IMG/VR virus record: IMGVR_UViG_3300025690_000006 | Span: 1-28,189 of that record | From: a virus | Lineage: Duplodnaviria; Caudoviricetes | Reading direction: 5' to 3' (one strand) | Length of the DNA: 28,189 nt | Part shown: positions 10,995 to 26,643 of the stretch, one piece after another | Numbering within the stretch: position 1 is the stretch's first letter | How the letters are laid out: every line of letters begins with the position of its first letter | Program-made: the position numbers and the translations under genes | The notes under the pieces: model-generated | The model's database searches: none | What the model was told of the DNA's origin: nothing | The model's input: only the letters and a program-made list of their open reading frames with translations

Positions 10995-11225
10995 ATGGAC
11001 GATTTTATTGAAGTACAAGGCTATCCGGGCTTAGTTCGTGATCAAAAGACTAATGCTATATTAAACGTCGATATGGATAAAATCGAGCGGGCCCGAATTG
11101 CCAAAAAACTACGTTTAGAAAAACGTCAGGACGAAACAATGCTAAATGCTAGACTGTATTCTTTGGAATCTGACATATCCGAAATAAAAAACGCATTGGA
11201 ACTGATAACTAAAAAACTTATATAA
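10995..11225 (+). CDS. Small hypothetical protein with C-terminal coiled coil
   Basis: V.G.PGLVRD..TNAILN.D followed by the heptad-like LESDISEIKNALELI. I recall this type following VrlC-like genes in T4-like phages. Confidence 0.8.
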   Translation: MDDFIEVQGYPGLVRDQKTNAILNVDMDKIERARIAKKLRLEKRQDETMLNARLYSLESDISEIKNALELITKKLI

Positions 11226-11228
11226 ATA
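11221..11228 (+). promoter_or_regulatory. T4-type late promoter TATAAATA
   Basis: Exact consensus overlapping the upstream stop, 26 nt before the ATG at 11255. Confidence 0.85.
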
Positions 11229-11254
11229 AACCCATATCATATGAAGTTTTATAA

Positions 11255-14200
11255 ATGTCATTTAGACCAATCCGATTTGCCAACTCTATCGAGAATGCTG
11301 GTGCAGTTAAACAGTTTACGTTAACTGACGAAGATTATTTAGCTTATGTGGCGGGAAAACATCTCAGTGAGATGGTCGAAGGCGATCCTACTACTTTAAC
11401 CAACAATTCTAGTGCCACTACTTTAAATGTAGGCACTTACGTTGATACTGTAATAAATCCTTCTGAACCCAGCGAAGGACCTAGAACCCATTCTCGTGTG
11501 TATAATGTAAATGCAACATCTGTTCCTTCTAATGGAACCAATACGCTTGAGTACGAAAACCCCGTCAATTTACCTTCATTAGTCTACGTTGACGATACTG
11601 TTAGTATTACCGTTCTTATTGATGCAACAAACGCTGGTAATGGTTTCGAAGAAATTCAAACATCTATGACCATTGGTCAAGCATCTAATAACTATGTTAT
11701 TAACTCGACTGTTATTAATCCCGTTGCTGGGTTTATAGAAACTACTGGAGTTAATGCGGAAGGAATAACAGTTTCGTGGGAAGACTTTTCTTCTTCGTCC
11801 ACTAAACTCCAAGGGCAGTATTCGGCAACATACGATATAACATTTACTGATATTGGTTATATGACTTTTGAATTTTCTACAACAGTTACAGATACCGATA
11901 ATGCAGTCTCTACTGCATCAGATTTTTTTACCTCTTTTATACGGGTAGAACGTTCAGACACTCCCGGAATATCTGAAATTGAATCTTCGGTTTATCAAAA
12001 CTCTATAGACGTAGTGCAGGAAGAAGGTGATGATAGGAAATATCCTATATTTTATGATAGATGGCGTAGAGGATTAAAGGAAACAAACGATCTTGAACTT
12101 GACGCTATGTGTCAAAGAATAGTATCTAATATAATGTCACATGAACGTTCGGGCACTTATCGTTTAGCTTCAGAATCGCCGGGTTCAGATTGGCAGGTCT
12201 CTTTACCAAACATATTTGTCGACACTCGTTATGATGGCACTGCAATTGGATACAGTATTTGGAATAGAAAATCTGAATTTCATCCAACACCTTATAAACC
12301 TTTAATGGTTAGACGCGATAATAATAATTTTGATGGTCTTCAGGAAATGACCGAAGATCAAGTGAAGTTTACATTTGGCGAAAGAGCCAAACGTATTATT
12401 ATTGAGTCAGGGATTGGTCGTTATCAATTAAGATCTAGTGAACAAGGTCCACCCACTGATGAAGGCACTTGGATTGCTAGAGGTGTAGCACTGGACACCA
12501 GAGTTTCTTATAATGTAAATGAAGGTTATGAATCCGTATCGACGTATGCAACGGATTATGAGGCTAGTTTTCTGGGTATACTTGATTACGAAACAGAATA
12601 TCAATCTACTTATACCACAGATTATGCGACCGATTATGAATCATCTTATGATACACAATATCTAAACGAGTTTTCTGAACCATATGAAGGTACTTATATA
12701 AGCACGTATCAGGGTGGTTATGAAACTGATTATTTAACTGATTATGAACAAGAATATGAACACGAATATGAGGGCACTTACAGCACGGATTTTGAAGGTA
12801 CTACGGACAGCGAATTCTATCAAACGTCATATACAGGTGAAATTGATATAGAACCTTACGATGGTGAATATCAGGGCGCTTTATATGAAGCATCGTTTGA
12901 AGGCATATACGCAGGACCATATTCTACCGATTATGAAACTATTTACTCTGGTGAATATCAATCAAGTTTTGATGGTGACTATGCTGCAACCTTTGATGGT
13001 GATTATGAAGGCAGTTTTGATGGTGACTATGCTGCAACCTTTGATGGTGATTATGAAGGCAGTTATCAAGGCAGTTACGCTGCAACTTTTGATGGACAAT
13101 ATGAACCAGACTATATTGGTAGTTACACTGCAACCTTTGATGGGCAATATGAACCTGACTATATTGGCAGTTACACTGCAACTTTTGATGGGCAATATGA
13201 GGGCAGTTATCAAGGCGGCTATGCAGTAACATTCACTGGTCAATATACAGGAACCTTTGAAGGAACTCCAGTATCTGTTCCTTATCAAGGTGATCCTGTA
13301 TCACAGACCTTTGAGGGTACTGCTGCATCACAGACTTTTGATGGTACCGCTGTATCACAAACCTTTGAAGGTACTGCTGATTCTCAAACCTTTGAAGGTT
13401 CTGCTGTATCACAAACCTTTGAAGGTACTGCTGATTCTCAAACCTTTGAAGGTACTGCTGCATCTCAAACCTTTGAAGGTACTGCTGATTCTCAAACCTT
13501 TGATGGTACTGCTGCATCACAGACTTTTGAAGGTACTGCTGCATCGGAAACCTTTGATGATGGTAATCCTTACACAGCAACGTTCACTGGATCTTATACT
13601 CCAACGTTCACTGGATCTTATACTCCAACGTTCACTGGATCTTATACTCCAACGTTTACAGGATCTTACACACCAACGTTTACAGGATCTTACACACCAA
13701 CGTTTACAGGATCTTACACACCAACGTTCACCGGATCTTATACTCCAACGTTCACCGGATCTTATACTCCAACGTTCACCGGATCTTATACTCCAACGTT
13801 TACTGGAAATTATCAAAGAACATATGTTGGTCCTTCTGGGCCCTTGATTGTAACAGGGACAGTGAACCCAAAAGGCTCGGCGATAAACAACAACGTTAAT
13901 ACGACAAACTATCCAGCGGCAGGTGGATTTTTTACTGCACAATCTGGTTCTACCATTACTATTAGTAGTACAGGAACTCTAACCAGCAATCCTTGGTCAT
14001 CACTAGGTAATGTTTTAACTTTTTATAGTCAATCATATTTTATTGGCCCCGCAAAAAATCGTAAACATAGATGTGTTTTAGTATTAGCCGGAACTCATGC
14101 TCAAAATGCCTTTACTAATATTGTAATCGCTGGCTCCGGCGGCTGGACCAATACCTTAACTACTGCTAATGCTGTTCATACTCAAGGTTCTGGATTAGGA

Positions 14201-14377
14201 AAAAACCTTTACACCTTTGGTGGAACCGGTCTTACGGGAACTCAGTGGGAATGGGCCAGCGGCAATGTAAACAGTGGTTTTGAACCGCCTTTAGGTAACG
14301 GTGATAATTCGGACGCCTTTACAGTTCTTAATCTGGCCTCAACCGCCTCACAATCTTGGACTGTGGAATTTCCCTGA
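11255..14377 (+). CDS. Putative fibre/appendage protein, chain A: base domain, Tyr/Phe-periodic repeat shaft and C-terminal tip domain
   Basis: 1040-aa ORF under a late promoter. It has a non-repetitive N-terminal ~420 aa, about 435 aa of repeats with an aromatic residue every 4-5 positions, and a ~180-aa Gly/Thr/Asn-rich C-terminal domain. Confidence 0.7.
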   Translation: MSFRPIRFANSIENAGAVKQFTLTDEDYLAYVAGKHLSEMVEGDPTTLTNNSSATTLNVGTYVDTVINPSEPSEGPRTHSRVYNVNATSVPSNGTNTLEYENPVNLPSLVYVDDTVSITVLIDATNAGNGFEEIQTSMTIGQASNNYVINSTVINPVAGFIETTGVNAEGITVSWEDFSSSSTKLQGQYSATYDITFTDIGYMTFEFSTTVTDTDNAVSTASDFFTSFIRVERSDTPGISEIESSVYQNSIDVVQEEGDDRKYPIFYDRWRRGLKETNDLELDAMCQRIVSNIMSHERSGTYRLASESPGSDWQVSLPNIFVDTRYDGTAIGYSIWNRKSEFHPTPYKPLMVRRDNNNFDGLQEMTEDQVKFTFGERAKRIIIESGIGRYQLRSSEQGPPTDEGTWIARGVALDTRVSYNVNEGYESVSTYATDYEASFLGILDYETEYQSTYTTDYATDYESSYDTQYLNEFSEPYEGTYISTYQGGYETDYLTDYEQEYEHEYEGTYSTDFEGTTDSEFYQTSYTGEIDIEPYDGEYQGALYEASFEGIYAGPYSTDYETIYSGEYQSSFDGDYAATFDGDYEGSFDGDYAATFDGDYEGSYQGSYAATFDGQYEPDYIGSYTATFDGQYEPDYIGSYTATFDGQYEGSYQGGYAVTFTGQYTGTFEGTPVSVPYQGDPVSQTFEGTAASQTFDGTAVSQTFEGTADSQTFEGSAVSQTFEGTADSQTFEGTAASQTFEGTADSQTFDGTAASQTFEGTAASETFDDGNPYTATFTGSYTPTFTGSYTPTFTGSYTPTFTGSYTPTFTGSYTPTFTGSYTPTFTGSYTPTFTGSYTPTFTGSYTPTFTGNYQRTYVGPSGPLIVTGTVNPKGSAINNNVNTTNYPAAGGFFTAQSGSTITISSTGTLTSNPWSSLGNVLTFYSQSYFIGPAKNRKHRCVLVLAGTHAQNAFTNIVIAGSGGWTNTLTTANAVHTQGSGLGKNLYTFGGTGLTGTQWEWASGNVNSGFEPPLGNGDNSDAFTVLNLASTASQSWTVEFP
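12956..13267 (+). repeat. In-frame 24-nt units forming a 48-nt higher-order repeat (YxATFDG[D/Q] alternating with YEGS/YEPD units)
   Basis: 13 consecutive 8-aa units read directly: YQSSFDGD YAATFDGD YEGSFDGD YAATFDGD YEGSYQGS YAATFDGQ YEPDYIGS YTATFDGQ YEPDYIGS YTATFDGQ YEGSYQGG YAVTFTGQ YTGTFEGT. Confidence 0.95.
13301..13570 (+). repeat. 10 x 27-nt coding tandem repeat (SQTFEGTA[A/V/D])
   Basis: Consensus tcacaaacctttgaaggtactgctgNN; 270 nt gives 10 units, the last divergent (SETFDDGNP). Confidence 0.97.
13571..13810 (+). repeat. 10 x 24-nt coding tandem repeat (YTPTFTGS)
   Basis: Consensus tatactccaacgttcacNggatct; 240 nt gives 10 units. Confidence 0.97.
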
Positions 14378-14414
14378 TGATTGAACTTATCATACAAAAC
14401 ATGAGAATATTCTA

Positions 14415-15863
14415 ATGGCGGATTTTTTAAATTTTGAAGGTCCACTAATACCAGAAAACTTTAGTGGTTCTGCTGTTAATGAAAACTTTAGTGGTTCTGC
14501 TGTTAATGAAAACTTTAGTGGTAGTGCTGTTAATGAAACCTTTGAGGGTACTGCTGTATCACAGACCTTTGAGGGTACCGCTGTATCACAAACCTTTGAG
14601 GGTACCGCTGTATCACAGACCTTTGAGGGTACTGCTGTATCACAGACCTTTGAGGGTACTGCTGTATCACAGACCTTTGAGGGTACCGCTGTATCACAAA
14701 CCTTTGAAGGTTCTCCTTACACAGCAACGTTCACCGGATCATATTCGCCAACGTTCACCGGATCTTACACTCCAACGTTTACTGGGTCATATTCGCCAAC
14801 GTTCACCGGATCTTACACCCCAACGTTTACTGGGTCATATTCGCCAACGTTCACCGGATCTTACACTCCAACGTTTACTGGGTCATATTCGCCAACGTTT
14901 ACTGGGTCTTACACACCAACGTTTACTGGGTCATATACGCCAACGTTTACTGGGCAATATGAACCTACATACATCACGGATTATGTTCCTTCTTTTGATG
15001 GAAACATTATATCTGAAGATTTTGATGGAACGGTTTTTCAAGGCATCTATGATGGAACATTGTTCACAGGATCATATGATCAAGATCCAACATTTGAAGG
15101 CAATTATACCGGAGTGTTATTCACAGGATCATATGATCAAGATCCAGCATTTGAAGGCAATTATACCGGAGTGTTATTCACAGGATCATACACTCAAGAT
15201 CCAGCATTTGAGGGTATCTATGATGGAACATTGTTCACCGGATCATATGATCAAGATCCAGTATTTACTGGTACATACGATGGTGAAATATTCACAGGAT
15301 CATATGATCAAGATCCAGTATTTACTGGTACATATGAATCTGTAATATATACTGGTGAGTATCAACATGATTATGAAACTACTTATATAGGAGATTATTC
15401 AGGCACATACGACGGTAGCATATACGAAGCGACTTTTGGAGGAACGTATGTTGGTGAATATGAGGGCGATTATCTTACAACTTATATCGGTGAATATATC
15501 GCATCTTACACCGATGATTTTGGTGGGTTATATGCGACCGACTACGCTACTGATTATGAAACAGCATACACTACAGAATATAGTGGAGAATATGAAGAAC
15601 CCTTTGATGGTATATACGAAGGAACTGAATATGAAACTGAATATGAAACCGAATATACCGGTGAGTTTTACGAAACAGAATATTCAACAGACTTTGAGGG
15701 AGACATATATACACATGTGTATTCGGTTTCAGACTATGCATCTGAATATGATACAGACTATACCACTGAGTATAGTACGGACTTAATTTACGGCGCTTCT
15801 TCTGGACTTGAAGCGCCCTATGTGAGAGTAGAGACGTGGACTTTATATGTAAGAGCGGCATAA
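14415..15863 (+). CDS. Putative fibre/appendage protein, chain B: almost pure repeat shaft ending in VETWTLYVRAA
   Basis: 482-aa ORF starting 37 nt after the chain A stop, in a different frame, with a weak GAG(A) SD. It is extremely acidic, with no Lys and Arg only in the last 13 residues. It uses the same repeat vocabulary as chain A. Confidence 0.75.
   Translation: MADFLNFEGPLIPENFSGSAVNENFSGSAVNENFSGSAVNETFEGTAVSQTFEGTAVSQTFEGTAVSQTFEGTAVSQTFEGTAVSQTFEGTAVSQTFEGSPYTATFTGSYSPTFTGSYTPTFTGSYSPTFTGSYTPTFTGSYSPTFTGSYTPTFTGSYSPTFTGSYTPTFTGSYTPTFTGQYEPTYITDYVPSFDGNIISEDFDGTVFQGIYDGTLFTGSYDQDPTFEGNYTGVLFTGSYDQDPAFEGNYTGVLFTGSYTQDPAFEGIYDGTLFTGSYDQDPVFTGTYDGEIFTGSYDQDPVFTGTYESVIYTGEYQHDYETTYIGDYSGTYDGSIYEATFGGTYVGEYEGDYLTTYIGEYIASYTDDFGGLYATDYATDYETAYTTEYSGEYEEPFDGIYEGTEYETEYETEYTGEFYETEYSTDFEGDIYTHVYSVSDYASEYDTDYTTEYSTDLIYGASSGLEAPYVRVETWTLYVRAA
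14454..14717 (+). repeat. 10 x 27-nt coding tandem repeat (3 x ENFSGSAVN + 7 x [E/Q]TFEGTAVS, last unit truncated)
   Basis: The first unit starts at 14454 and the tenth at 14697 (9 x 27 nt later). Confidence 0.97.
14718..14957 (+). repeat. 10 x 24-nt coding tandem repeat (Y[T/S]PTFTGS)
   Basis: 240 nt gives 10 units, with Ser at units 2, 4, 6 and 8. Confidence 0.97.
15036..15347 (+). repeat. 5.5 x 57-nt coding repeat (FxGxYxGxx FTGSYDQDPx)
   Basis: Units start at 15036, 15093, 15150, 15207 and 15264, with a partial unit at 15321. Confidence 0.95.
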
Positions 15864-15876
15864 ATGAGGATTTATT

Positions 15877-16326
15877 ATGGCAGAGTATCGATTTTTAGAC
15901 AATGCATTTTGGGAAGAAGAAGATCATTCTAAATTAAAATGTATTCGTATGACCAAACTTGGTCCTGGCAAAGAAAAGAAAGACGAATTGACGGTTCACA
16001 AATTTCAACTTGACGGATCAGAAAATCCGTTGTATAATGAAATTATTGATGCGTTAACAATAGAAGGCATCAATGCTAGTACTGCTAAAAGAATTGCAGA
16101 AAAAGCAAAACGCAAAATTGACGATTCTGTTAAACGAGATCAGGATAAACAGGCTAAAGAGTTAGAAAAACTTTATACTTTAAAATTACAGGCCTTTGAA
16201 ATAGAAGATATAAAAAACTGCAAAGAAACAACTCTTAGGTCTAAAGTACGTAGAGCAAAAAATGAAGTTGAACTCAATGCCTCGGTTACAATGGTAATGG
16301 CATATCAAATGGGTTTTTTTAAATGA
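15877..16326 (+). CDS. Hypothetical protein, possibly a fibre assembly chaperone
   Basis: GAGGA RBS and a Lys/Glu-rich helical C-terminus (LYTLKLQAFEIEDIKN...LRSKVRRAK). The function is inferred only from its position directly after the fibre genes. Confidence 0.6.
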   Translation: MAEYRFLDNAFWEEEDHSKLKCIRMTKLGPGKEKKDELTVHKFQLDGSENPLYNEIIDALTIEGINASTAKRIAEKAKRKIDDSVKRDQDKQAKELEKLYTLKLQAFEIEDIKNCKETTLRSKVRRAKNEVELNASVTMVMAYQMGFFK

Positions 16327-17072
16327 CCCGTGGTTATGTAGTAGTTGGTACCGTTAAAAAATATTTTTACTTATCAGCTATTCATGTTATCGAAACTATT
16401 AAAGCATATAATCCTGATGCTAATGTCACCCTTTTCACTGAAGAACGTTTTTTGGACGGTCAAGAATTTTGTGCGGATAAAGTAGAATTTGTAGCCAGTC
16501 ACAAACGATCTAAGATTGATGGAATGGCAAAATCACCATACGACCAAACATTTTATATTGATGCTGATTGTGATATTGAACACGAAGATATTGCAAAGGT
16601 TTTCGATGAACTTGAAGATAATGATTTAGTTTTCACAGGATTGCCCGAAGAAAGACATTATTGTTACGCTGAAGTCTACTTTCCTGGCGCAACTAAACCA
16701 GATGGTAGTATGGGTGGATTTGAACTTTGTGGAGGAGTGTGTTTATATAACATGACTAATCCTTTGGTAAAAGAATTTATGGTGGATTGGCATGATCTCA
16801 CTATTCGTCAATATGATGGTCATTGGTGGCCATTAAACGAGGATGGCACAGAAGATCTTAAGAACTATCCAGCTTCTTTTAAACGGTGGGATCAATTCTC
16901 TCTTTGGTGGTTGTTAAACAAAGAACCAAAATATGAAACACTCAAAGTTTCGATTTTTAAAGATGATGCCCGTTGGAACTTTTTTAATGGTTATAGAGCA
17001 GAACATAATACTAAACCTGTTGTGATAAGACATTTCTCTAACTCAAAAGCAAAACACAATAACTATGATTAG
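16323..17072 (+). CDS. Glycosyltransferase, GT-A fold (GT8-like / nucleotide-diphospho-sugar transferase)
   Basis: N-terminal GYVVV strand, SPYDQTFYIDAD (DxD motif), GGV, WDQFSL, RWN and a C-terminal VIRH. It is coupled to the upstream gene by an ATGA overlap. Confidence 0.82.
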   Translation: MTRGYVVVGTVKKYFYLSAIHVIETIKAYNPDANVTLFTEERFLDGQEFCADKVEFVASHKRSKIDGMAKSPYDQTFYIDADCDIEHEDIAKVFDELEDNDLVFTGLPEERHYCYAEVYFPGATKPDGSMGGFELCGGVCLYNMTNPLVKEFMVDWHDLTIRQYDGHWWPLNEDGTEDLKNYPASFKRWDQFSLWWLLNKEPKYETLKVSIFKDDARWNFFNGYRAEHNTKPVVIRHFSNSKAKHNNYD

Positions 17073-17745
17073 AATTGGTTTGAAAGATGTACCCTTGAAT
17101 GATTATGCGTTAGATATACTAAAAGGAGCTGAATGGTTTATACAAGATGATCATTATAAAGCAGTGGTTTTATCATGTGAAAGTTTTTTGAATCATTCTG
17201 ACGAATATATTAGTGATCAGTATCTTCAAAAAATTATGGATATGGGCGACAAACATGATGGATTTCCTGAAATTATATGTGCACATTCGTTCGTTTCTAA
17301 GAATATAAAGTTTGTTGATTGTGATGATATAGCAGAAAGGGCTGAGGAGATTAATAAAAACCTCCAAGAGACCATTGGCGGTTTAGTTACTAATTTGTGT
17401 ATGAGAAGAAACGCTCTTTTTGCGGTATATCCTCCTGGAGGATTTATTTCGTGGCACAATAACGCTAATGCATCAGCCTACAACATCATCTTTACTTGGT
17501 CTGAAACAGGAGATGGTTACTTTAAATATTGGGATCCTGATAAAAAAGAAATCATTATAATTCCTGATGTAAAAGGATGGCAATGTAAAGCCGGTTATTT
17601 TGGAAGTTATGATCAAGATTCACGCACATTGTGTTACCACGCCGCTCAAAACAATTGTTTAAGAATGACTATAGCATTTACTCTCAGTAAAGATGAAATG
17701 GCATTAGGTCTGCAAGATATGATTATAGAAGATATTTCGTCTTAG
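17065..17745 (+). CDS. 2OG-Fe(II) oxygenase-like / double-stranded beta-helix protein
   Basis: YPPGGFISWHNN (H-x-N in place of H-x-D), distal YH, and R in CLRMTI; it overlaps the GT gene by 8 nt. Confidence 0.7.
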   Translation: MIRIGLKDVPLNDYALDILKGAEWFIQDDHYKAVVLSCESFLNHSDEYISDQYLQKIMDMGDKHDGFPEIICAHSFVSKNIKFVDCDDIAERAEEINKNLQETIGGLVTNLCMRRNALFAVYPPGGFISWHNNANASAYNIIFTWSETGDGYFKYWDPDKKEIIIIPDVKGWQCKAGYFGSYDQDSRTLCYHAAQNNCLRMTIAFTLSKDEMALGLQDMIIEDISS

Positions 17746-19323: not shown

Positions 19324-22300
19324 ATGACAACACGTAAACGAATACTATTACCCAGAAGTGATATACCAGGTCGCGCTCCAACAATCAATGAGATTGATTT
19401 TGGTGAAATTGCTATCAATACACATGATGGTAAAGCGTTTATTAAAAGAGAAGCTAATGGTGAAGTCTCTGTTCAATCTATTGGTTCTGAAGAAGTAGAA
19501 AACGTATATTACGTATCCAAATCAGGAGATTATGGTAACGATGGTCGTTCATTAATAAATTCTTTTAAGACGTTAGATTCCGCAGTTGCCGTTGTAACAG
19601 CCAAACAAAGTTTTAAATTCAACGAGTTGGTGTGTGAAAGAGATTTGAATCTCATCATGGACGCCGTTCGTTATGATATGGTCTTAGACACCAATTACAA
19701 TACTGTCACCGCAGGTAACGCATACAAACGCGGCAATGCAATTAAAGTAACTACCGATCAAAAATATCAGACACGAAGAGCCATTAACGAAGAACGTGTA
19801 GGTATGATCTCTGCACCAGAAGTTGTCGCTAGTCCAACTGCTACACAAAGAGTTAGTAAAGGGTTTACCGAAATCATTGACATATTCTATGATGGCGATC
19901 CTGATGCTTTGTATTACACCGATCCCCCAATTGAAGTATGGGCTGATGCAAACGCTGCTTCTAATGTTATTCAAGACAATCGTTCGGCAATTCAAGATGC
20001 CGTAATTACTTTTATAAACAGTAGTTTTACAGAAACATATGATGCCGTCAAGTGTTCCAGAGATGTGGGTCTTATCTTGAACGCCGTCGCTCGTGATCTT
20101 TTATTGGGTACTGATTATCATACTGTGACTGCTGGATGGGCATATAAGCGGGCAAACTCTGCATATGTTTTGAGCAATCAAAATGATGCGACTATTGCAG
20201 CAATTAACTTTGCGCGAGATTATATTAACGCTCGTGCTAATGTTATTTCTGATACTGATATTACAAATTTGTTTTTAAACGTTACCAACGTTATTGATGG
20301 AACTCAAACAGTTTATCCTACGATCAACTATACGTCTACTGTTGGTTCAACGTATCAGAACGTGGACAGAGATGCAGCATCGGCGGCTGTTCAATCAAAC
20401 CGACAAACTTTGATTGATGATACAACAACGTTTATTAATAACAACTATACCGGTATTGGTGCAACTTGTGAACGTGATCTAGGTCTTATTATAGATGCTG
20501 TTTCTCGTGATCTTATTCTGGGTACTGATTTCTGGACAATTGCTGCGGGTAATTCATATCTTAGAACAAACTCAGCCTACGTACTTTCAGAACAATCTGG
20601 AGTAACCGTAGCGGTTATCAATTACGCAAGAGATCTCATCAAGGCACTTCCTGCTGTAACGTCTGACGCTTTGATTGATACTTTATTTAAACGAGTAACA
20701 GATTGCATTGATGGAACTTTTACGGTAGTTCAATCATACACCACGCTACCTCAAATCGGAACATATGCTAATGTAGCAGGAAGATTACTTCAAACTACAA
20801 CAATCAGTGGCGCCAGATCCAGTTTAGTTAGCAGTCTCACAAGTTTCTTGAGTACCAACTATCCTGCACTTGTTTACGATGTCGCTAAATGTGAACGTGA
20901 TACAGGTTTTATCATTGATGCTTTAATTGCAGATCTGTATTATGGTGGTAACACAGCATCACGTAATGCTGCACTTTCATATTTTTCCTTTACTGTATCA
21001 CAATTAGGTGCTGGCGAAGCGGCCGCTACTGTAGCCGCTTACAACGATCTTGCGACTAATATCAAAGCACTTGCAAACGTTACTGAAGATGCAAGAGTGG
21101 ATACTCTTATTGGTCTTACTACTGGTGTTATCACTGCCGGTAATACAGATTCTCTTTCAGTTGAAGTAGAGATTTCTATTGCGGGATTAACAACCACTGA
21201 ATACGATGCAATAGCCGCATCAGAAAGTACTGTCATTTTAGATACTATCACTTACGGCAGAGAAAATTACTCTTTCTACGATCAAGCGGCATGCGAAAGA
21301 GATGTTGGTTATATATTAGATGGCCTATCATATGATATCAGATATGGTGGTAACACTGCAATGCGTATTAACGCTGAAGCATATCTCGTAGGTGCGGTGT
21401 TACAAATAGGATCAGGTGAGTTAACCGCAACAGTTGCGGCATACAATGATCTTAAAACACGACTAGATGCAGTTGTCTCAACTACACCAGAACAGACGGT
21501 TAAAGATACTTTCATTGATGAGATTGTTGGTGTTATTAACGCTGGCAATACTACTGGTCTAGACGCTGAAGTAGAAATTGGTACAGGTGGATTATCGACT
21601 ACTGAGTTTGATGCAATTCAGGCTGCAATTGCTGATGCACAGACCGCAACGATTGCTTATGTTGACGCTAACTGGGTAAACTCTCTTAGTGGATATGATG
21701 CCGTCAAGTGCGCTCGTGATGCGGGTCTTATCATGGACGCAGTTCGTCGTGATTTGATTTTAGGTACAGATTATAATTCAATCACTGCTGGGTTTGCATA
21801 CAAAAGAGCAAACTCTGCATATGTTCTGAGTGCACAATTAACACCTACTATACAGGCAGTAAACTTCTTACGAGATCAAATTAAAACACTCACTGGTCCT
21901 GCTAGTGATAGTATTATCGATTCTCTGATATTAAAAGTTACTCAGGTACTAGACGGTACGATTACAACTTACACCACACCGACTTATGTAGATACCGCTG
22001 GTGCAACATATCAAACAGCAGATAGAATTGCGGCTACTAATAATATTCAAACTAATCGTGCAACAATCGTTTCAGATTTAACTACTTGGATATCGATTAA
22101 TTATTCTTCATTCTCATACGATATTGCTAAATGTGAACGAGATGTAGGATATATTCTTGATGCGTTGTCGCATGATGTTAAGTATGGTGGTAATACTGCT
22201 GCTAGACAAAATGCTTTAGCATACTTTGTAGGTGCAGTTTCTCAGTTGGGTGTTGGTGAGAACGTTGTAACAGTGCAATCGTATTTACAACTTAAGACGT

Positions 22301-25300
22301 TGATTAACGCCTATGTTACAACTACACCCGAACAGACCAACATCTCAGATCTATTAGATATTATTATTACCGTTATCAGTGATGAAAATTTAGACAGTCT
22401 ACCTGATGAAACAGAAATTGATACCACTGGCTTGGTAACAACGGAATTTGATTCAATATATGCTAATCGATTAGCATTCCAAAACGACACAATTGATTTT
22501 GTTAACGACATGAATCCTGTTAGCAATTTCGATGACGAGAAATGTTTCCGAGACACGGGTTTAATAATTGATGCTGTTGCGCTCGACTTACAGAACAATA
22601 CTAACTACAATAGTGCCACTGCTGGTTTAGCATACAGAAGAGGCAACGCACAGAAAGTTCAGAGTGATCAGTTATCTTATACTGTAGACTCTATCAATTA
22701 TCTTAGAGATCAGATTAATGCTTCTGGTATCAGTGAGGTTAGTCAAACGTTTGTTACGGCACGTTTCAAAGAGATTACGGATCTTCTTACTGAATCTACC
22801 GAGTACGGCGCGTTTGATGGTGATCCATTATTCTATACTGGTTCTGGTAGTGAAAACGCAGATAAAAGAAATGCAATTAATTCTCTTATCGTAAATCGTA
22901 AAAATATTCAAATCGAATTAATTAATTGGATACAAGTCAATTATGATACTTTAAAATACGATCAAGATAAGTGCAATCGTGATGTTGGATATATCATTGA
23001 TGCGTTGGCACATGATATCTTATTTGACGGATCTTTTGCAACTGATACTAACGCAAGATCGTATTGGGTAGGAACAGATTTAAATATTGAAGTTGGAACA
23101 GCGAGTGAGTCTCTTGATGGTGTCGCAGACGTTTGGACTAATCAATTAGGTTCAGGCGAAATCACAGCATCTCTTGCTGCTTATGAACAATTGAAAACTA
23201 TCGTCAACAAGTATATTGTCACATCGGCTGAAGAGACACGAGTTAATACTCTTATAGATGTTATCAGAACGTCAATCGCCGCTGTTGATGGAACTAGTGT
23301 TACAGTTACGTTGCCTACTATTACAGGCGATAGTAATTTGTTTCATGTTAACAGAAACACTTTACAAGAACAAGTGGTGTTTTATGCTAATTCAATATTC
23401 CCAGTATATTCATATGATCAAGTTAAATGTCGAAGAGATGTAGGTTTCATTCTTGATGGTCTATCATATGATCTTAAGTATGGCGGTAATAGTGCAACTT
23501 ATACGAATCAAAGATCTTATTTTTCTATATTCTCTAATGGATATGGTGATCTTTTGGGTCAGAACGAAATTACAGCCACGATTTCCGCTTATGAAAATCT
23601 TAAATCAATCATTGCTGGATACACGGCAGGTCTCAACACAGACAACATAAACAAGGTTATTGATCTTCTCGATATAATTATTAACTCGGTTCAACAATCT
23701 TCTGTTGGTACTTACACACTGGGTGAGTTCTTTGATGGTGCTGCAATTTATCAATACAATGTGCCAACAGGATCAGACCCATTGGCATTCCCAGATCTGA
23801 TTACGTTGGGTCACAAAGTCATATATAACGATTTGTACTTAGCACATCAAGCATTTGACGTTGGAGCTTCTCAGCGGTTAACTGTCATTCGATCATCCAA
23901 TGCAGTTGCAAAAAACCAAGGCACTGACTCAACAATCTTCCTGAAGTCGGGTGACTATATTGTCAACAATCCTATTAAGTTACCACCTAAGACTGCGATC
24001 ATTGGTGATGCGCTTCGTGCGTGTACGATCAGACCTAAGAACGTTGATAGTGATATCTTCTGGGCAGACAATGGTGTGTACATTAAAGAAATTACGTTCC
24101 GAGATCATCAAGACGGCGCTGCTGTTCTTGCGTTTGATCCTCGCGTTGACTCTGCCAAAGCAGGTCCATTCATCACACAGTCACCATACGTACAGAACTG
24201 TACTTCATTAACTTCATCTGGTATCGGTTTACGTATTGATGGATCAAAAGTATCAGGTCTTCGTTCAATGGTACTAGACGCATTCACACAGTTTAACGCT
24301 GGTGGTACAGGTGTGCATCTCCTGAACCGTGGTTACGCACAGTTAGTATCATTGTTTACAGTATCAACGACTACTTCTGTTCTAGCAACTTCTGGTGGTC
24401 AGTGTTCATTAACGAACTCTAACTCATCTTTTGGTGAACGTGGTCTTGTAGCAACAGGTGGTAGTAAGTCTTTGTATAATGGTTCTGTTCATGCCAACTA
24501 CATTCAGAATGACGAAGTAATACGTATTAATAACATTATCACACAAGACTCTGCTGATTACACGTTGAATCTTGGTGATTACAAGAAACCAAACTATAAC
24601 GATGCTATTCGGTTCGACTCTGATAATTATTATTATACTGTACTAAACGTATCTGATGAGATAACTCAAGATTGGGCAACCACAGGTAACACTACAGAAA
24701 ACGCACAAGGTGTGTTTAACACTACTGCATCGTTTCCACAACAGACCAAAACAAATAATGGTCTGATGGGTTACTCTACTCATATGAGTCAAGACGATCT
24801 CTACTTAGTCATCACCGAAATAAATGATGCTGCTGGTAAAGCAGAAATCTACACGAAAGATATCGTCGGGGGTGTTCCTCAGTGGGATTATCAAGCACAA
24901 GTTATACCTACACCTATAGCACCGGCTGTAGTAGATGCGAACACTAACTTTGGTGAAGTCGCTTTGTTAAATGAAACTGGTGATTTTCTTGCTGTATCCG
25001 CACCCGCACAACAAAAGGTTGATGCAACAAATGCTACCGTAGAAAACGGTGCAGTTTACATGTATGAAAGAACCGGATCTAGTTGGAGCCAACATTCTGT
25101 CGTATTCTTACCAGGCGTAACCGACAGAAACAGATCTTTTGGTAGATCAATGGATTTGAGTGAAGATGGTTTAACACTCATCGTATCTACTGATAACGAT
25201 ACTGGACCAGCCACACAAGGCGCTGTTTATTATTATCTGAGAACGTTAGATGATCCTTCTACTTGGGTTCAACAACAACGAATTATTTTTCCAGATGGTA

Positions 25301-26643
25301 CTGGGTTTAGTACTACGCAACCTTCTGTTACAATAAGTGCGGATGGCACTGATCTGATTATTCAATGGGGTGGGGCAATTAATAAGGCTTACTATTACCA
25401 ACGAAACATTGATAACATTTTTATTCTTGCACAACAAGTTTATCCTAGATCTAACTTTGTTACACAAAGAACTCCTATGATTCGTATGAATCCTACAGCA
25501 ACGCATTTTGTGATGGGTGATACTTTAACACCTAGAGGTTACTTTACCAACATTAATACTGATAGTGATAATAGTGCAGATTTTGAATTCGCTAAGAAAC
25601 AAAAACTAGACAATTTGATTTTCTCAAATAGCCCTGCTAAAATCACAACATCTGATACTGATCGTTGGATAAACTTTGAAAATGATTTTGCTGTTGGAAC
25701 TACGATACAACTTTTAGGTAGCACTGGAAACGATGGTAGTTATGTGATCAGTCAAGTGGCTCAAGACAGTGTTCAGTTTAGTGGCACTTTCCCATCCACA
25801 GGTGCAGAGACCGATGTACAAATGTATATTGATCAAGTGGGTGTTGCAGAATTCTTTGTCTTTGACGAAGGGCAGTGGGTCACCGAAGATATTATAGAAG
25901 CACCTATTGATGTTGATGAGAATTTTGGATTTGGTTCAGGTGTTGATATCAACACTAGAGGCGAACTAGCCTCGGTAGGTAACTATGTGTCTGATGGTCA
26001 ACAAAGAAACGAAGTTTCTATTATAGAACGTGCACGAAGTGATTGGAGAAAAGTAACACAACTTCAACCGTTGACACCCACAAACATTGCAGCAAAAGGC
26101 AGCAATGATGGGTACGGTTCTTATGAAAGAAGCACCGGTTCAACTGTCGGTGGTTCGGGTGATTTTGTTGTAGTCGGTGCTGCTGGTAGAAGAGAAACAG
26201 ACACTGATGCTGGCACAGAATACGGTGCAGCATACTCCTATTATTCTATTCTAGAAGAGACGGGTTCATACGAACTTACCATCGCTCCAGCACTAAATAA
26301 GAACTTTAAGTCATTACAAAATGCTAGTTTTCATCAGCGTTCTTTAATCACTGCTTCTGGTCACACGTTTGAATATGTTGGATCTGGTACAAACATGTTC
26401 ACTGCTATTCCTCAGAACGGCGGTGTACCTAAGAAAGAAAACGAAGTTATATTCGATTCGGCAGAAGCAGAATTTCCTAACTTTGGATTAGTATACTTTA
26501 CCGCTACAGACGAATTAGGTGATTTTAGAATTGGTGAAGATTTAACTATTAACAGAGAAGAAGGTACAATTACTGGGGTGACATTTGATAGATCATTGTT
26601 CGCAGTATTGACACCATTCATATTAGCACTAGAAGGATCATAA
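19324..26643 (+). CDS. Giant virion structural / tail fibre-spike protein: Mtd-N-like anchor, split pectin-lyase-like beta-helix, ten CxRD helical repeats and FG-GAP-like propeller
   Basis: Segments RILLPRS..PGRAP......GEIAINTHDGK.F, VYYVSKSG...NDG......KTL, TIFLKSGDY....PI.LP....I.GD.LR...I.P and QSPYVQNCTS; FG-GAP-like blades (FGRSMDLSEDG, GAVY); C-terminal ASGHTFEYVGSG and TDELGDFRIG. Confidence 0.8.
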   Translation: MTTRKRILLPRSDIPGRAPTINEIDFGEIAINTHDGKAFIKREANGEVSVQSIGSEEVENVYYVSKSGDYGNDGRSLINSFKTLDSAVAVVTAKQSFKFNELVCERDLNLIMDAVRYDMVLDTNYNTVTAGNAYKRGNAIKVTTDQKYQTRRAINEERVGMISAPEVVASPTATQRVSKGFTEIIDIFYDGDPDALYYTDPPIEVWADANAASNVIQDNRSAIQDAVITFINSSFTETYDAVKCSRDVGLILNAVARDLLLGTDYHTVTAGWAYKRANSAYVLSNQNDATIAAINFARDYINARANVISDTDITNLFLNVTNVIDGTQTVYPTINYTSTVGSTYQNVDRDAASAAVQSNRQTLIDDTTTFINNNYTGIGATCERDLGLIIDAVSRDLILGTDFWTIAAGNSYLRTNSAYVLSEQSGVTVAVINYARDLIKALPAVTSDALIDTLFKRVTDCIDGTFTVVQSYTTLPQIGTYANVAGRLLQTTTISGARSSLVSSLTSFLSTNYPALVYDVAKCERDTGFIIDALIADLYYGGNTASRNAALSYFSFTVSQLGAGEAAATVAAYNDLATNIKALANVTEDARVDTLIGLTTGVITAGNTDSLSVEVEISIAGLTTTEYDAIAASESTVILDTITYGRENYSFYDQAACERDVGYILDGLSYDIRYGGNTAMRINAEAYLVGAVLQIGSGELTATVAAYNDLKTRLDAVVSTTPEQTVKDTFIDEIVGVINAGNTTGLDAEVEIGTGGLSTTEFDAIQAAIADAQTATIAYVDANWVNSLSGYDAVKCARDAGLIMDAVRRDLILGTDYNSITAGFAYKRANSAYVLSAQLTPTIQAVNFLRDQIKTLTGPASDSIIDSLILKVTQVLDGTITTYTTPTYVDTAGATYQTADRIAATNNIQTNRATIVSDLTTWISINYSSFSYDIAKCERDVGYILDALSHDVKYGGNTAARQNALAYFVGAVSQLGVGENVVTVQSYLQLKTLINAYVTTTPEQTNISDLLDIIITVISDENLDSLPDETEIDTTGLVTTEFDSIYANRLAFQNDTIDFVNDMNPVSNFDDEKCFRDTGLIIDAVALDLQNNTNYNSATAGLAYRRGNAQKVQSDQLSYTVDSINYLRDQINASGISEVSQTFVTARFKEITDLLTESTEYGAFDGDPLFYTGSGSENADKRNAINSLIVNRKNIQIELINWIQVNYDTLKYDQDKCNRDVGYIIDALAHDILFDGSFATDTNARSYWVGTDLNIEVGTASESLDGVADVWTNQLGSGEITASLAAYEQLKTIVNKYIVTSAEETRVNTLIDVIRTSIAAVDGTSVTVTLPTITGDSNLFHVNRNTLQEQVVFYANSIFPVYSYDQVKCRRDVGFILDGLSYDLKYGGNSATYTNQRSYFSIFSNGYGDLLGQNEITATISAYENLKSIIAGYTAGLNTDNINKVIDLLDIIINSVQQSSVGTYTLGEFFDGAAIYQYNVPTGSDPLAFPDLITLGHKVIYNDLYLAHQAFDVGASQRLTVIRSSNAVAKNQGTDSTIFLKSGDYIVNNPIKLPPKTAIIGDALRACTIRPKNVDSDIFWADNGVYIKEITFRDHQDGAAVLAFDPRVDSAKAGPFITQSPYVQNCTSLTSSGIGLRIDGSKVSGLRSMVLDAFTQFNAGGTGVHLLNRGYAQLVSLFTVSTTTSVLATSGGQCSLTNSNSSFGERGLVATGGSKSLYNGSVHANYIQNDEVIRINNIITQDSADYTLNLGDYKKPNYNDAIRFDSDNYYYTVLNVSDEITQDWATTGNTTENAQGVFNTTASFPQQTKTNNGLMGYSTHMSQDDLYLVITEINDAAGKAEIYTKDIVGGVPQWDYQAQVIPTPIAPAVVDANTNFGEVALLNETGDFLAVSAPAQQKVDATNATVENGAVYMYERTGSSWSQHSVVFLPGVTDRNRSFGRSMDLSEDGLTLIVSTDNDTGPATQGAVYYYLRTLDDPSTWVQQQRIIFPDGTGFSTTQPSVTISADGTDLIIQWGGAINKAYYYQRNIDNIFILAQQVYPRSNFVTQRTPMIRMNPTATHFVMGDTLTPRGYFTNINTDSDNSADFEFAKKQKLDNLIFSNSPAKITTSDTDRWINFENDFAVGTTIQLLGSTGNDGSYVISQVAQDSVQFSGTFPSTGAETDVQMYIDQVGVAEFFVFDEGQWVTEDIIEAPIDVDENFGFGSGVDINTRGELASVGNYVSDGQQRNEVSIIERARSDWRKVTQLQPLTPTNIAAKGSNDGYGSYERSTGSTVGGSGDFVVVGAAGRRETDTDAGTEYGAAYSYYSILEETGSYELTIAPALNKNFKSLQNASFHQRSLITASGHTFEYVGSGTNMFTAIPQNGGVPKKENEVIFDSAEAEFPNFGLVYFTATDELGDFRIGEDLTINREEGTITGVTFDRSLFAVLTPFILALEGS
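19615..23700 (+). repeat. Ten ~140-aa protein repeats with a C-x-R-D-x-G-x-I-x-D-A motif
   Basis: Cys codons at 19633, 20053, 20467, 20890, 21292, 21709, 22132, 22543, 22972 and 23428, spaced 402-456 nt apart. The array boundaries are approximate. Confidence 0.93.

What the first reader, a model, noticed from the sequence alone, without database searches (positions are those of the whole stretch)
12956..15347. Repeat variants appear in exactly reversed order in the two genes (a-b-b-a-c-d)
Seen: chain A read backwards from the tip side gives spacer units YEGSYQGG, YEPDYIGS, YEPDYIGS, YEGSYQGS, YEGSFDGD, YQSSFDGD. Chain B read forwards gives FQGIYDGTL, FEGNYTGVL, FEGNYTGVL, FEGIYDGTL, FTGTYDGEI, FTGTYESVI. 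The constant units also covary: A has three ...FDGQ then two ...FDGD, and B has three ...DP[T/A] then two ...DPV. The units differ in sequence and period (48 vs 57 nt) and are not DNA inverted repeats, so the match lies at the protein level. Inference: this is a residue-level pairing code, maintained by matched duplications at two loci about 2 kb apart.
Basis: partly seen in the sequence, partly recalled or inferred. Interest (0 to 1): 0.85.

Follow-up and report, generated by a model that had tools for sequence, protein, structure and literature searches.

The report
Split-gene mirror-coded phage fibre stalk
Two neighbouring tail-region genes of an uncultured marine T4-like phage encode repeat chains that match step for step when one is read backwards (105 steps each), so they likely zip head-to-tail into one very long thin fibre stalk with a swappable tip, which relatives encode as a single chain; I found this design in no paper or solved structure.

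Summary
In detail: spacer order a-b-b-a-c-d is mirrored (r=0.92, 2 of 720 orders). It is one part of a larger mirror. Gene A (11255-14377) residues 419-860 and gene B (14415-15863) residues 4-458 each parse into 105 steps that line up antiparallel. In the non-repetitive part Gly steps face Gly steps 7 of 7 and non-Gly 16 of 16 (P=4e-6). A 94% relative has 117 and 117 steps. 115 of 150 listed homologues are single chains (collar, out arm, tip, return arm, closing strand), and their arms co-vary antiparallel (z=20). The stalk is an insertion in the hairpin of the third repeat of a three-repeat collar; here B supplies the return strand. Tips are swapped between relatives. Best reading: a 1:1 two-stranded antiparallel beta-ribbon fibre, up to about 140 nm, kept in register by Gly/aromatic fit and bulges. 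The code is strict for step class and loose for residue identity. Pairing is inferred; no model or experiment shows it. This scan noted the same design on other DNA, including two-gene forms.

The parts
11221..11228 (+). TATAAATA, T4-type late promoter motif (motif recalled) upstream of gene A
   Evidence: 6 matches in the window, all on +; 3.3 expected, 9 of 100 shuffles reach 6, so weak by count
11255..14377 (+). Gene A, 1040 aa: collar, outgoing arm, tip
   Evidence: no Pfam hit; only a repeat-region PHROG hit
11255..12508 (+). Collar (aa 1-418): three internal repeats starting near aa 18, 274 and 362, with an insertion of roughly 150 aa in repeat 1; lacks its last strand
12509..12955 (+). 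Outgoing arm, non-repetitive part (35 steps, aa 419-567)
12956..13243 (+). Six 48-nt (16-aa) units, the A side of the finding
13310..13552 (+). A-X array, nine 27-nt units; faces B-Y
13583..13798 (+). A-Y array, nine 24-nt units; faces B-X
13835..14377 (+). Exchangeable tip domain (aa 861-1040), likely receptor-binding
   Evidence: no informative homologue or model
14415..15863 (+). Gene B, 482 aa: return arm and closing strand
   Evidence: stop of A and start of B spanned without differences by single contigs in 3 of 4 runs laid
14460..14702 (+). B-X array, nine 27-nt units
14730..14945 (+). B-Y array, nine 24-nt units
15036..15347 (+). Six 57-nt (19-aa) units (the last partial), the B side of the finding
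15348..15788 (+). Return arm, non-repetitive part
15819..15860 (+). C-terminal strand (TLYVR motif) that in single-chain relatives is predicted to close the collar

Best explanation
Genes A and B encode arms that match step for step in reverse order, and they likely assemble as the two halves of one virion fibre: A would run out from a collar to a tip domain and B would run back antiparallel along it, its last strand predicted to complete the collar. SHOWN: equal step numbers, mirror order, matched change in relatives, single-chain homologues at the same locus, exchanged tips. INFERRED: the arms form a two-stranded beta-ribbon (1 A : 1 B), up to about 140 nm if fully extended. Every fourth residue is aromatic. 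Position 1 of a step faces position 3 of the partner step, so an aromatic ring covers a cross-strand Gly or small residue. Five- and six-residue steps are bulges, and their places plus the Gly pattern fix one register. INFERRED: an unmatched gain or loss of units loops out and is selected against. Because the distal halves of both arms and the tip are contiguous in the DNA, one recombination tract with mirror-placed ends swaps or lengthens both arms at once. INFERRED: the tip binds the host; both arms are strongly acidic, so cations in seawater would have to screen them.
For: 105 vs 105 steps in the window and 117 vs 117 in L009 with the same anchors; non-repetitive part Gly:Gly 7 of 7 and non:non 16 of 16, Fisher P=4e-6, the 12 shifted registers P>=0.14, best parallel offset P=0.068. 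Same rule in L012 (59% collar identity) 3 of 3 and 9 of 9, P=0.0045 over a 16-step run anchored by eye. Spacer order r=0.92, 2 of 720; L009 r=0.83, 48 of 40320. Inter-chain rather than intra-chain: L009 A-Y 11 = B-X 11 (both period 3; r=0.61, P=0.0005) and A-X 9 = B-Y 9; L006/L008 A-Y 10 = B-X 10 with A-X 9. 115 of 150 listed homologues end in the closing strand on the same chain; in 59 of them (652 steps) covariation peaks at position 1 against position 3 (z=20 and 11.5; reversed-order control max 4.9). Split forms are one clade (98/96) nested among single chains. Collar has three repeats (hhalign E 1e-7, 2e-5, 2e-4) and the stalk sits where repeat 2 has a short hairpin. AlphaFold2 of single-chain P0060 gives a confident collar with long strands 242-272 and 370-402. 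Tips differ between collars that are 99-100% identical; contigs show joints at the tip borders and a variant that leaves the window's sequence at 13305 and rejoins at 14934, mirror positions. Locus follows baseplate genes gp25, gp6, gp8-like.
Against: No co-change of paired steps in the non-repetitive part between window and L009 (0 of 10 changed steps), and only 2 of 5 in the shared repeat block (P=0.11). Constant units not significant in the window. A-X against B-Y in L009 matches in number but order is not significant (r=0.22, P=0.11); periodic arrays cannot tell antiparallel from parallel (A-Y/B-X r=0.70 in parallel). Both arms are acidic (71 and 73 D+E, 1 and 0 K+R), which should oppose pairing. 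The AlphaFold2 model is confident only for the collar and the first 10-20 residues of each stem strand; 102 of 404 residues are under pLDDT 50. Side bands of covariation (z 9.8 and 8.7 at neighbouring registers) leave the exact register and strand number open. Only three distinct complete two-gene pairs were seen (window, L009, L012). A proteins with other unit counts (P0001, P0002, P0004, P0170) have no visible partner and may be assembly collapses or true mismatches. Parsing rules and anchors were chosen by me on the window.
Confidence: 0.72

Rival explanations
1. Same register, different assembly: three A:B pairs form a six-stranded antiparallel barrel like the T4 gp37 needle, with aromatic and Gly residues alternating in the core.
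For: Phage fibres are usually trimers (established knowledge; PMC3004832 passages). Aromatic/Gly on one face every second residue would pack a narrow core. Covariation has a second band at the neighbouring even register (z=9.8), as a second neighbour strand would give.
Against: The collar is already pseudo-threefold within one chain and folds with high confidence as a monomer. Frequent one- and two-residue bulges on alternating strands suit an open ribbon better (inference). The second band could come from similarity between adjacent steps.
Confidence: 0.15
2. Branched form: each chain folds its own X array back on its own Y array, giving two side hairpins (a protein cruciform), and only the proximal arms pair between chains.
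For: In the window all four arrays have nine units and the X-Y modules of A and B are 80% identical over 491 bases, so intra-chain pairing is allowed by sequence; a Pro-containing hinge lies between X and Y in both chains.
Against: In L006/L008 and L009 counts match between chains, not within them, and intra-chain order tests are null (r=-0.10, -0.09). The hinge follows the same bulge rule as the 57-nt units.
Confidence: 0.06
3. The mirror is chance, an assembly artefact, or a relic of a single-chain ancestor with no present pairing.
For: Short-read assemblies mis-count tandem repeats (A proteins of near-identical phages differ in counts); no laid contig spans the whole stretch.
Against: The non-repetitive part shows the rule (P=4e-6). 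L064 from another collection has the same steps (it may be the same sample). Three split lineages with different repeats and counts each keep the match, so it was rebuilt after the split.
Confidence: 0.04

Closest known systems
T4 long tail fibre gp37 needle domain
   Same: Chain goes out to a receptor-binding tip and returns antiparallel; described as a six-stranded antiparallel needle of three chains (PMC9659904, one passage), about 150 by 25 A (PMC3004832, passages).
   Different: No sequence match. The stalk here is up to ten times longer, built of four-residue aromatic steps with bulges, split over two genes, and leaves a three-repeat collar. Trimer state untested.
Bovine ultralong CDR H3 stalk and knob
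   Same: A two-stranded beta-ribbon stalk, inserted in a loop of a host domain, carries a variable binding knob (PMC10523490, passages).
   Different: That whole loop is at most about 70 residues, one chain, unrelated in origin; no mirror-ordered repeats.
Aromatic-over-glycine (mortise-tenon, aromatic rescue) pairs of beta-barrels
   Same: A Tyr covering a cross-strand Gly was used by designers to define strand register (bioRxiv 10.1101/2020.10.22.346965, passages); the same contact is inferred here.
   Different: There, two sites in a membrane barrel; here the contact would repeat along about 100 steps of a soluble fibre.
MABP beta-prism domain (lead only, for the collar)
   Same: The four best VIA-align rows for the single-chain model are MACPF-family or MABP entries (Z 6.1, rmsd 4.6, 123 aligned; Z 6.1, 3.5, 115; Z 5.2, 3.9, 115; Z 5.0, 6.1, 122); that these share a threefold beta-prism is recalled, and the collar has three repeats.
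   Different: Z under 8 may be only a common arrangement; 6-10% identity; Foldseek gives nothing at E<=0.001.
Phage C48C1 hypothetical protein WJE88074.1 (Kyanoviridae, OQ984149.1)
   Same: Same collar (hhalign 99.9%, 38% identity), same closing strand, same downstream genes.
   Different: One chain of about 3350 aa with Arg-rich steps and several inserted domains; annotated only as hypothetical; no paper found.

Membership tests
T4 gp37-type needle fibre | Sequence homology to gp37/gp12 collar and needle | tested here: not met
   No Pfam or fitting PHROG hit for A or B; collar profile finds 0 PDB sequences at E<=1; 63 of 64 family members have no PHROG hit
T4 gp37-type needle fibre | Chain runs out to a tip and back, antiparallel | tested here: met
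   By sequence statistics only:
T4 gp37-type needle fibre | Homotrimer giving a six-stranded barrel | tested here: inconclusive
   Pseudo-threefold collar argues for a monomer; second covariation band leaves a barrel open; A and B are two different chains
T4 gp37-type needle fibre | His-coordinated metal sites along the needle (recalled) | tested here: not met
   The listed steps hold only isolated His residues, no series of His-x-His motifs
T4 gp37-type needle fibre | Tip binds a host receptor | not testable with these tools
   Only indirect: tips are exchanged
MABP beta-prism (collar) | Three internal repeats | tested here: met
MABP beta-prism (collar) | Significant structural match | tested here: inconclusive
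   Z 5.0-6.1, below the level the tool calls reliable
Unnamed mirror-fibre family with this collar | Collar domain, two mirrored aromatic-step arms, C-terminal closing strand, position after the baseplate wedge genes | tested here: met
   here collar on A, closing strand on B

The most novel reading that the evidence does not exclude
A natural two-chain protein duplex: two separately made polypeptides find one register over about 440 residues by a readable complementarity rule, as nucleic-acid strands do, forming a bare two-stranded fibre of about 140 nm. The nested gene layout lets one recombination event exchange tip and distal stalk together, and where the two distal modules have been homogenised, as in this window, the duplex could switch between a linear and a cruciform fold.
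Probability: 0.45. Interest if true: 0.92.

Novelty: categorically new. Interest (0 to 1): 0.8.

Why it matters
Known phage fibres are mostly parallel trimers; out-and-back needles are short. A family of at least 454 clusters (50% identity, E<=0.001) with no Pfam name appears to build fibres of hundreds to over a thousand residues per arm by antiparallel self-matching. The two-gene form is the most testable case: the strands can be made separately, mixed, mismatched and swapped, so the pairing rule can be measured directly. If it holds, it gives a natural rule set for long programmable beta-strand pairing and explains how abundant marine T4-like phages change fibre length and tip together.

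Tried and rejected
Complex prediction of A 556-690 with B 176-326, three copies each, no alignment: no answer (score 0.00, mark 0.34); not used either way. AlphaFold2 of the tip alone: mean pLDDT 36.7, not searched. ESM Atlas: B gives only hypothetical viral clusters under 0.9; tip gives nothing. Tip search among longer proteins: only the 4 known A-type proteins. Search for more B proteins: 1 hit, a single-chain relative; cluster look-ups gave no B; B start pattern 1 locus at a contig end; genome contigs none; metagenome scan 2 loci, one identical to the window and one the same contig as L009. Foldseek of the single-chain model: nothing at E<=0.001 in BFVD or PDB; no row at Z>=8 among 48,161 chains. 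The 83-aa tip of L006 looked by eye like mid-chain domains of single chains, but phmmer over 233 proteins found only close relatives: dropped. Side-by-side framing of the 3478-aa L014 lost register at bulges (arms 1430 and 1400 aa): not counted. DNA inverted repeat as cause: rejected. Charge complementarity as the code: rejected for this pair. Sigma-70 promoter scan at chance level. Paper searches with nothing describing this design: (listings; most subscription papers are not in the library, supplements not searched); phage A1002 'two-protein chain-like fibers' (PMC13730344) and 7-7-1 capsid fibres (PMC12796354) were read as passages and are different.
Full report
Setting. The window is the baseplate and fibre region of a T4-like phage: gp5 C-terminus, gp25, gp6, gp8-like and a 1802-aa gene precede the locus, and tail-fibre-like genes follow. 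The stretch 12000-15900 is held by 20 of 24 listed runs, 19 of them labelled marine metagenome. The host is unknown. The finding lies in two adjacent + strand genes, A (11255-14377, 1040 aa) and B (14415-15863, 482 aa). Neither has a Pfam hit; A has only a repeat-region PHROG hit. The stop of A and the start of B are spanned without differences by single contigs in 3 of 4 runs laid and by two pieces in the fourth, so the split is real.

Observation. The six spacers of A read backwards and the six of B read forwards give a-b-b-a-c-d as stated. Their distance matrices correlate at r=0.92 (2 of 720 orders), against -0.11 in parallel; at DNA level r=0.83 (18 of 720). There is no DNA inverted repeat. 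The claim on constant units holds for the one residue named, but whole units give r=0.13 (40 of 120). In L009 spacers give r=0.83 (48 of 40320; parallel r=0.49, P=0.03) and constant units r=0.84 (24 of 5040).

The mirror is larger. Cutting both proteins before each Phe or Tyr, with nine-residue pieces split 5+4 (my rule), gives 105 steps for A 419-860 and 105 for B 4-458; the same anchors give 117 and 117 in L009. The order is A: irregular, 48-nt x6, X x9, Y x9, tip; B: X x9, Y x9, 57-nt x6, irregular. The 35 irregular steps cannot owe their order to tandem duplication. Of these, 23 are aromatic four-residue steps facing aromatic four-residue steps; Gly at position 3 faces Gly 7 of 7 and non-Gly faces non-Gly 16 of 16 (Fisher P=4e-6). 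The other 12 pairs involve bulged or non-aromatic steps and were left out of that table. Twelve shifted registers give P>=0.14 and the best parallel offset 0.068. Over the whole stalk the table is 18 of 18 and 16 of 16; steps that start without an aromatic face a Gly step 23 of 24 times. L012, with different repeats and a 59% collar, obeys the rule 3 of 3 and 9 of 9 over a 16-step run (P=0.0045) and has 3+4 blocks in A against 4+3 in B, with one further partial unit in B.

Between chains, not within. In the window all four distal arrays have nine units, so either pairing fits. Relatives decide: L006 and L008 have A-X 9, A-Y 10, B-X 10 (B cut by the contig end); L009 has A-X 9, A-Y 11, B-X 11, B-Y 9, with a period of three in A-Y and B-X. 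Order tests within a chain are null. A-X against B-Y matches in number only (P=0.11).

The family. A collar profile from six sequences finds 454 representatives at E<=0.001. Of the 150 listed, 115 end in the closing-strand motif on the same chain; the 35 others include fragments, two variants my pattern missed, and A-type halves. Among 59 loci examined two hold complete split pairs (L009, L012) and two partial ones; phage C48C1 has a single chain of about 3350 aa in the same gene order. The downstream 149-aa and 249-aa genes are found in 36 of the 59 loci. In a tree of 36 collars the split forms make one clade (98/96) nested among single chains, with a 3478-aa single chain next to it (some long-branch rows are badly extracted and were ignored). 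In 59 of the 115 single chains that stayed four-periodic for at least five steps from both anchors (652 steps), covariation against within-protein shuffles peaks for position 1 of one arm with position 3 of the partner step (z=20.0 and 11.5), with side bands of 9.8 and 8.7; the reversed-order control reaches 4.9 (an unpooled version on 83 proteins shows the same band).

Anatomy. The collar has three internal repeats. Repeat 2 carries a short hairpin between a DT motif and a strand of the type T-x-x-hydrophobic-Y; repeat 3 has the DT motif, then the entire stalk, then the C-terminal TYTLY strand. So the stalk is an extended hairpin of repeat 3, which makes its two arms antiparallel at the base. 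AlphaFold2 on single-chain P0060 with a 64-sequence alignment gives a confident collar and long strands at 242-272 and 370-402; the middle 102 residues are low-confidence. I saw secondary structure and confidence only, not contacts. In the window, B supplies the return arm and the closing strand.

Exchange. The window and L006 have identical collars but unrelated tips (180 and 83 aa). P0002 (99% collar) has a third tip, 90% identical to that of P0010, whose collar is only 68% identical. Contigs from 3 of 4 runs show joints that skip the tip at its borders, and loose ends show a variant that leaves the window's sequence at 13305 (A residue 684) and rejoins at 14934 (B residue 174), partner positions in the register above (separate contigs, so their linkage is inferred). 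This suggests how two loci 2 kb apart change together: tip and distal arms are one nested DNA block.

Mechanism. Most likely a 1:1 two-stranded antiparallel ribbon with aromatic rings over cross-strand Gly or small residues, a contact known from beta-barrels (bioRxiv 10.1101/2020.10.22.346965, passages), and bulges that fix the register. At 3.3 A per residue (recalled) 105 steps give about 139 nm at most. Against a strict letter code: none of 10 changed irregular steps between window and L009 has a changed partner, and both arms are acidic. A trimeric barrel and a cruciform remain rivals. Where on the virion the fibre sits, and whether the tip binds the host, are inferred from gene position and tip exchange.

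Known systems. Closest in working is the T4 gp37 needle (PMC9659904, one passage; PMC3004832, passages); this is not a member by sequence. The bovine antibody stalk and knob is a small analogue (PMC10523490, passages). The collar has a weak lead to the MABP beta-prism. Seven searches of the held library found no description of the design (listings only, supplements not searched). This scan has noted the same design on other genomes at least eight times, including two-gene forms; none is a look-alike of this DNA. These notes are unchecked AI readings, seen after I had written my own, and are not counted as support.

Verdict. Observation confirmed; interpretation right in kind, too strict on 'residue-level' and too narrow in extent. 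Interest 0.8; design not found in print; physical pairing awaits experiment.

Noticed in passing
window 13290-13830 and 14430-14970: The X-Y modules of genes A and B are direct DNA repeats (80% over 491 bases), whereas in L009 the two modules differ; looks like homogenisation between the two genes and makes each chain self-complementary.
   Followed up: partly
window 15877-17745: Three genes (149 aa unknown; 249 aa; 226 aa with a weak 2OG-Fe(II) oxygenase PHROG hit) follow the fibre; the first two are found in 36 of 59 loci. They may chaperone or modify the fibre; the 249-aa protein looks glycosyltransferase-like by eye only.
   Followed up: partly
L036-L039, L052, L055, L058, L062: Two complete members of the family lie in tandem.
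   Followed up: no
L005 11668-21711 (phage C48C1): The 3350-aa homologue has Arg-rich steps, several domains inserted along the chain and a duplicated segment of about 70 aa.
   Followed up: no
L028 8915-17428; P0021: Family members that end in an extra C-terminal domain instead of the closing strand.
   Followed up: no
L014 9260-19702: Nearest single-chain relative has arms of 1430 and 1400 residues around one tip.
   Followed up: partly
window 11450-12000: Insertion of roughly 150 aa in collar repeat 1, shared by the clade around the split forms and absent from short homologues.
   Followed up: no
window 19324-26643: 2439-aa protein with many dispersed helical repeats bearing a C-x-R-D motif, hit by tail-fibre PHROGs.
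   Followed up: no
window 1597, 1675, 5500, 11221, 17762, 26953: Six TATAAATA motifs, all on the + strand, several just before genes.
   Followed up: no
window about 10996-11230: A small ORF of under 80 aa between the 1802-aa gene and gene A (seen); C48C1 has a small 'virion structural protein' after its own large gene.
   Followed up: no
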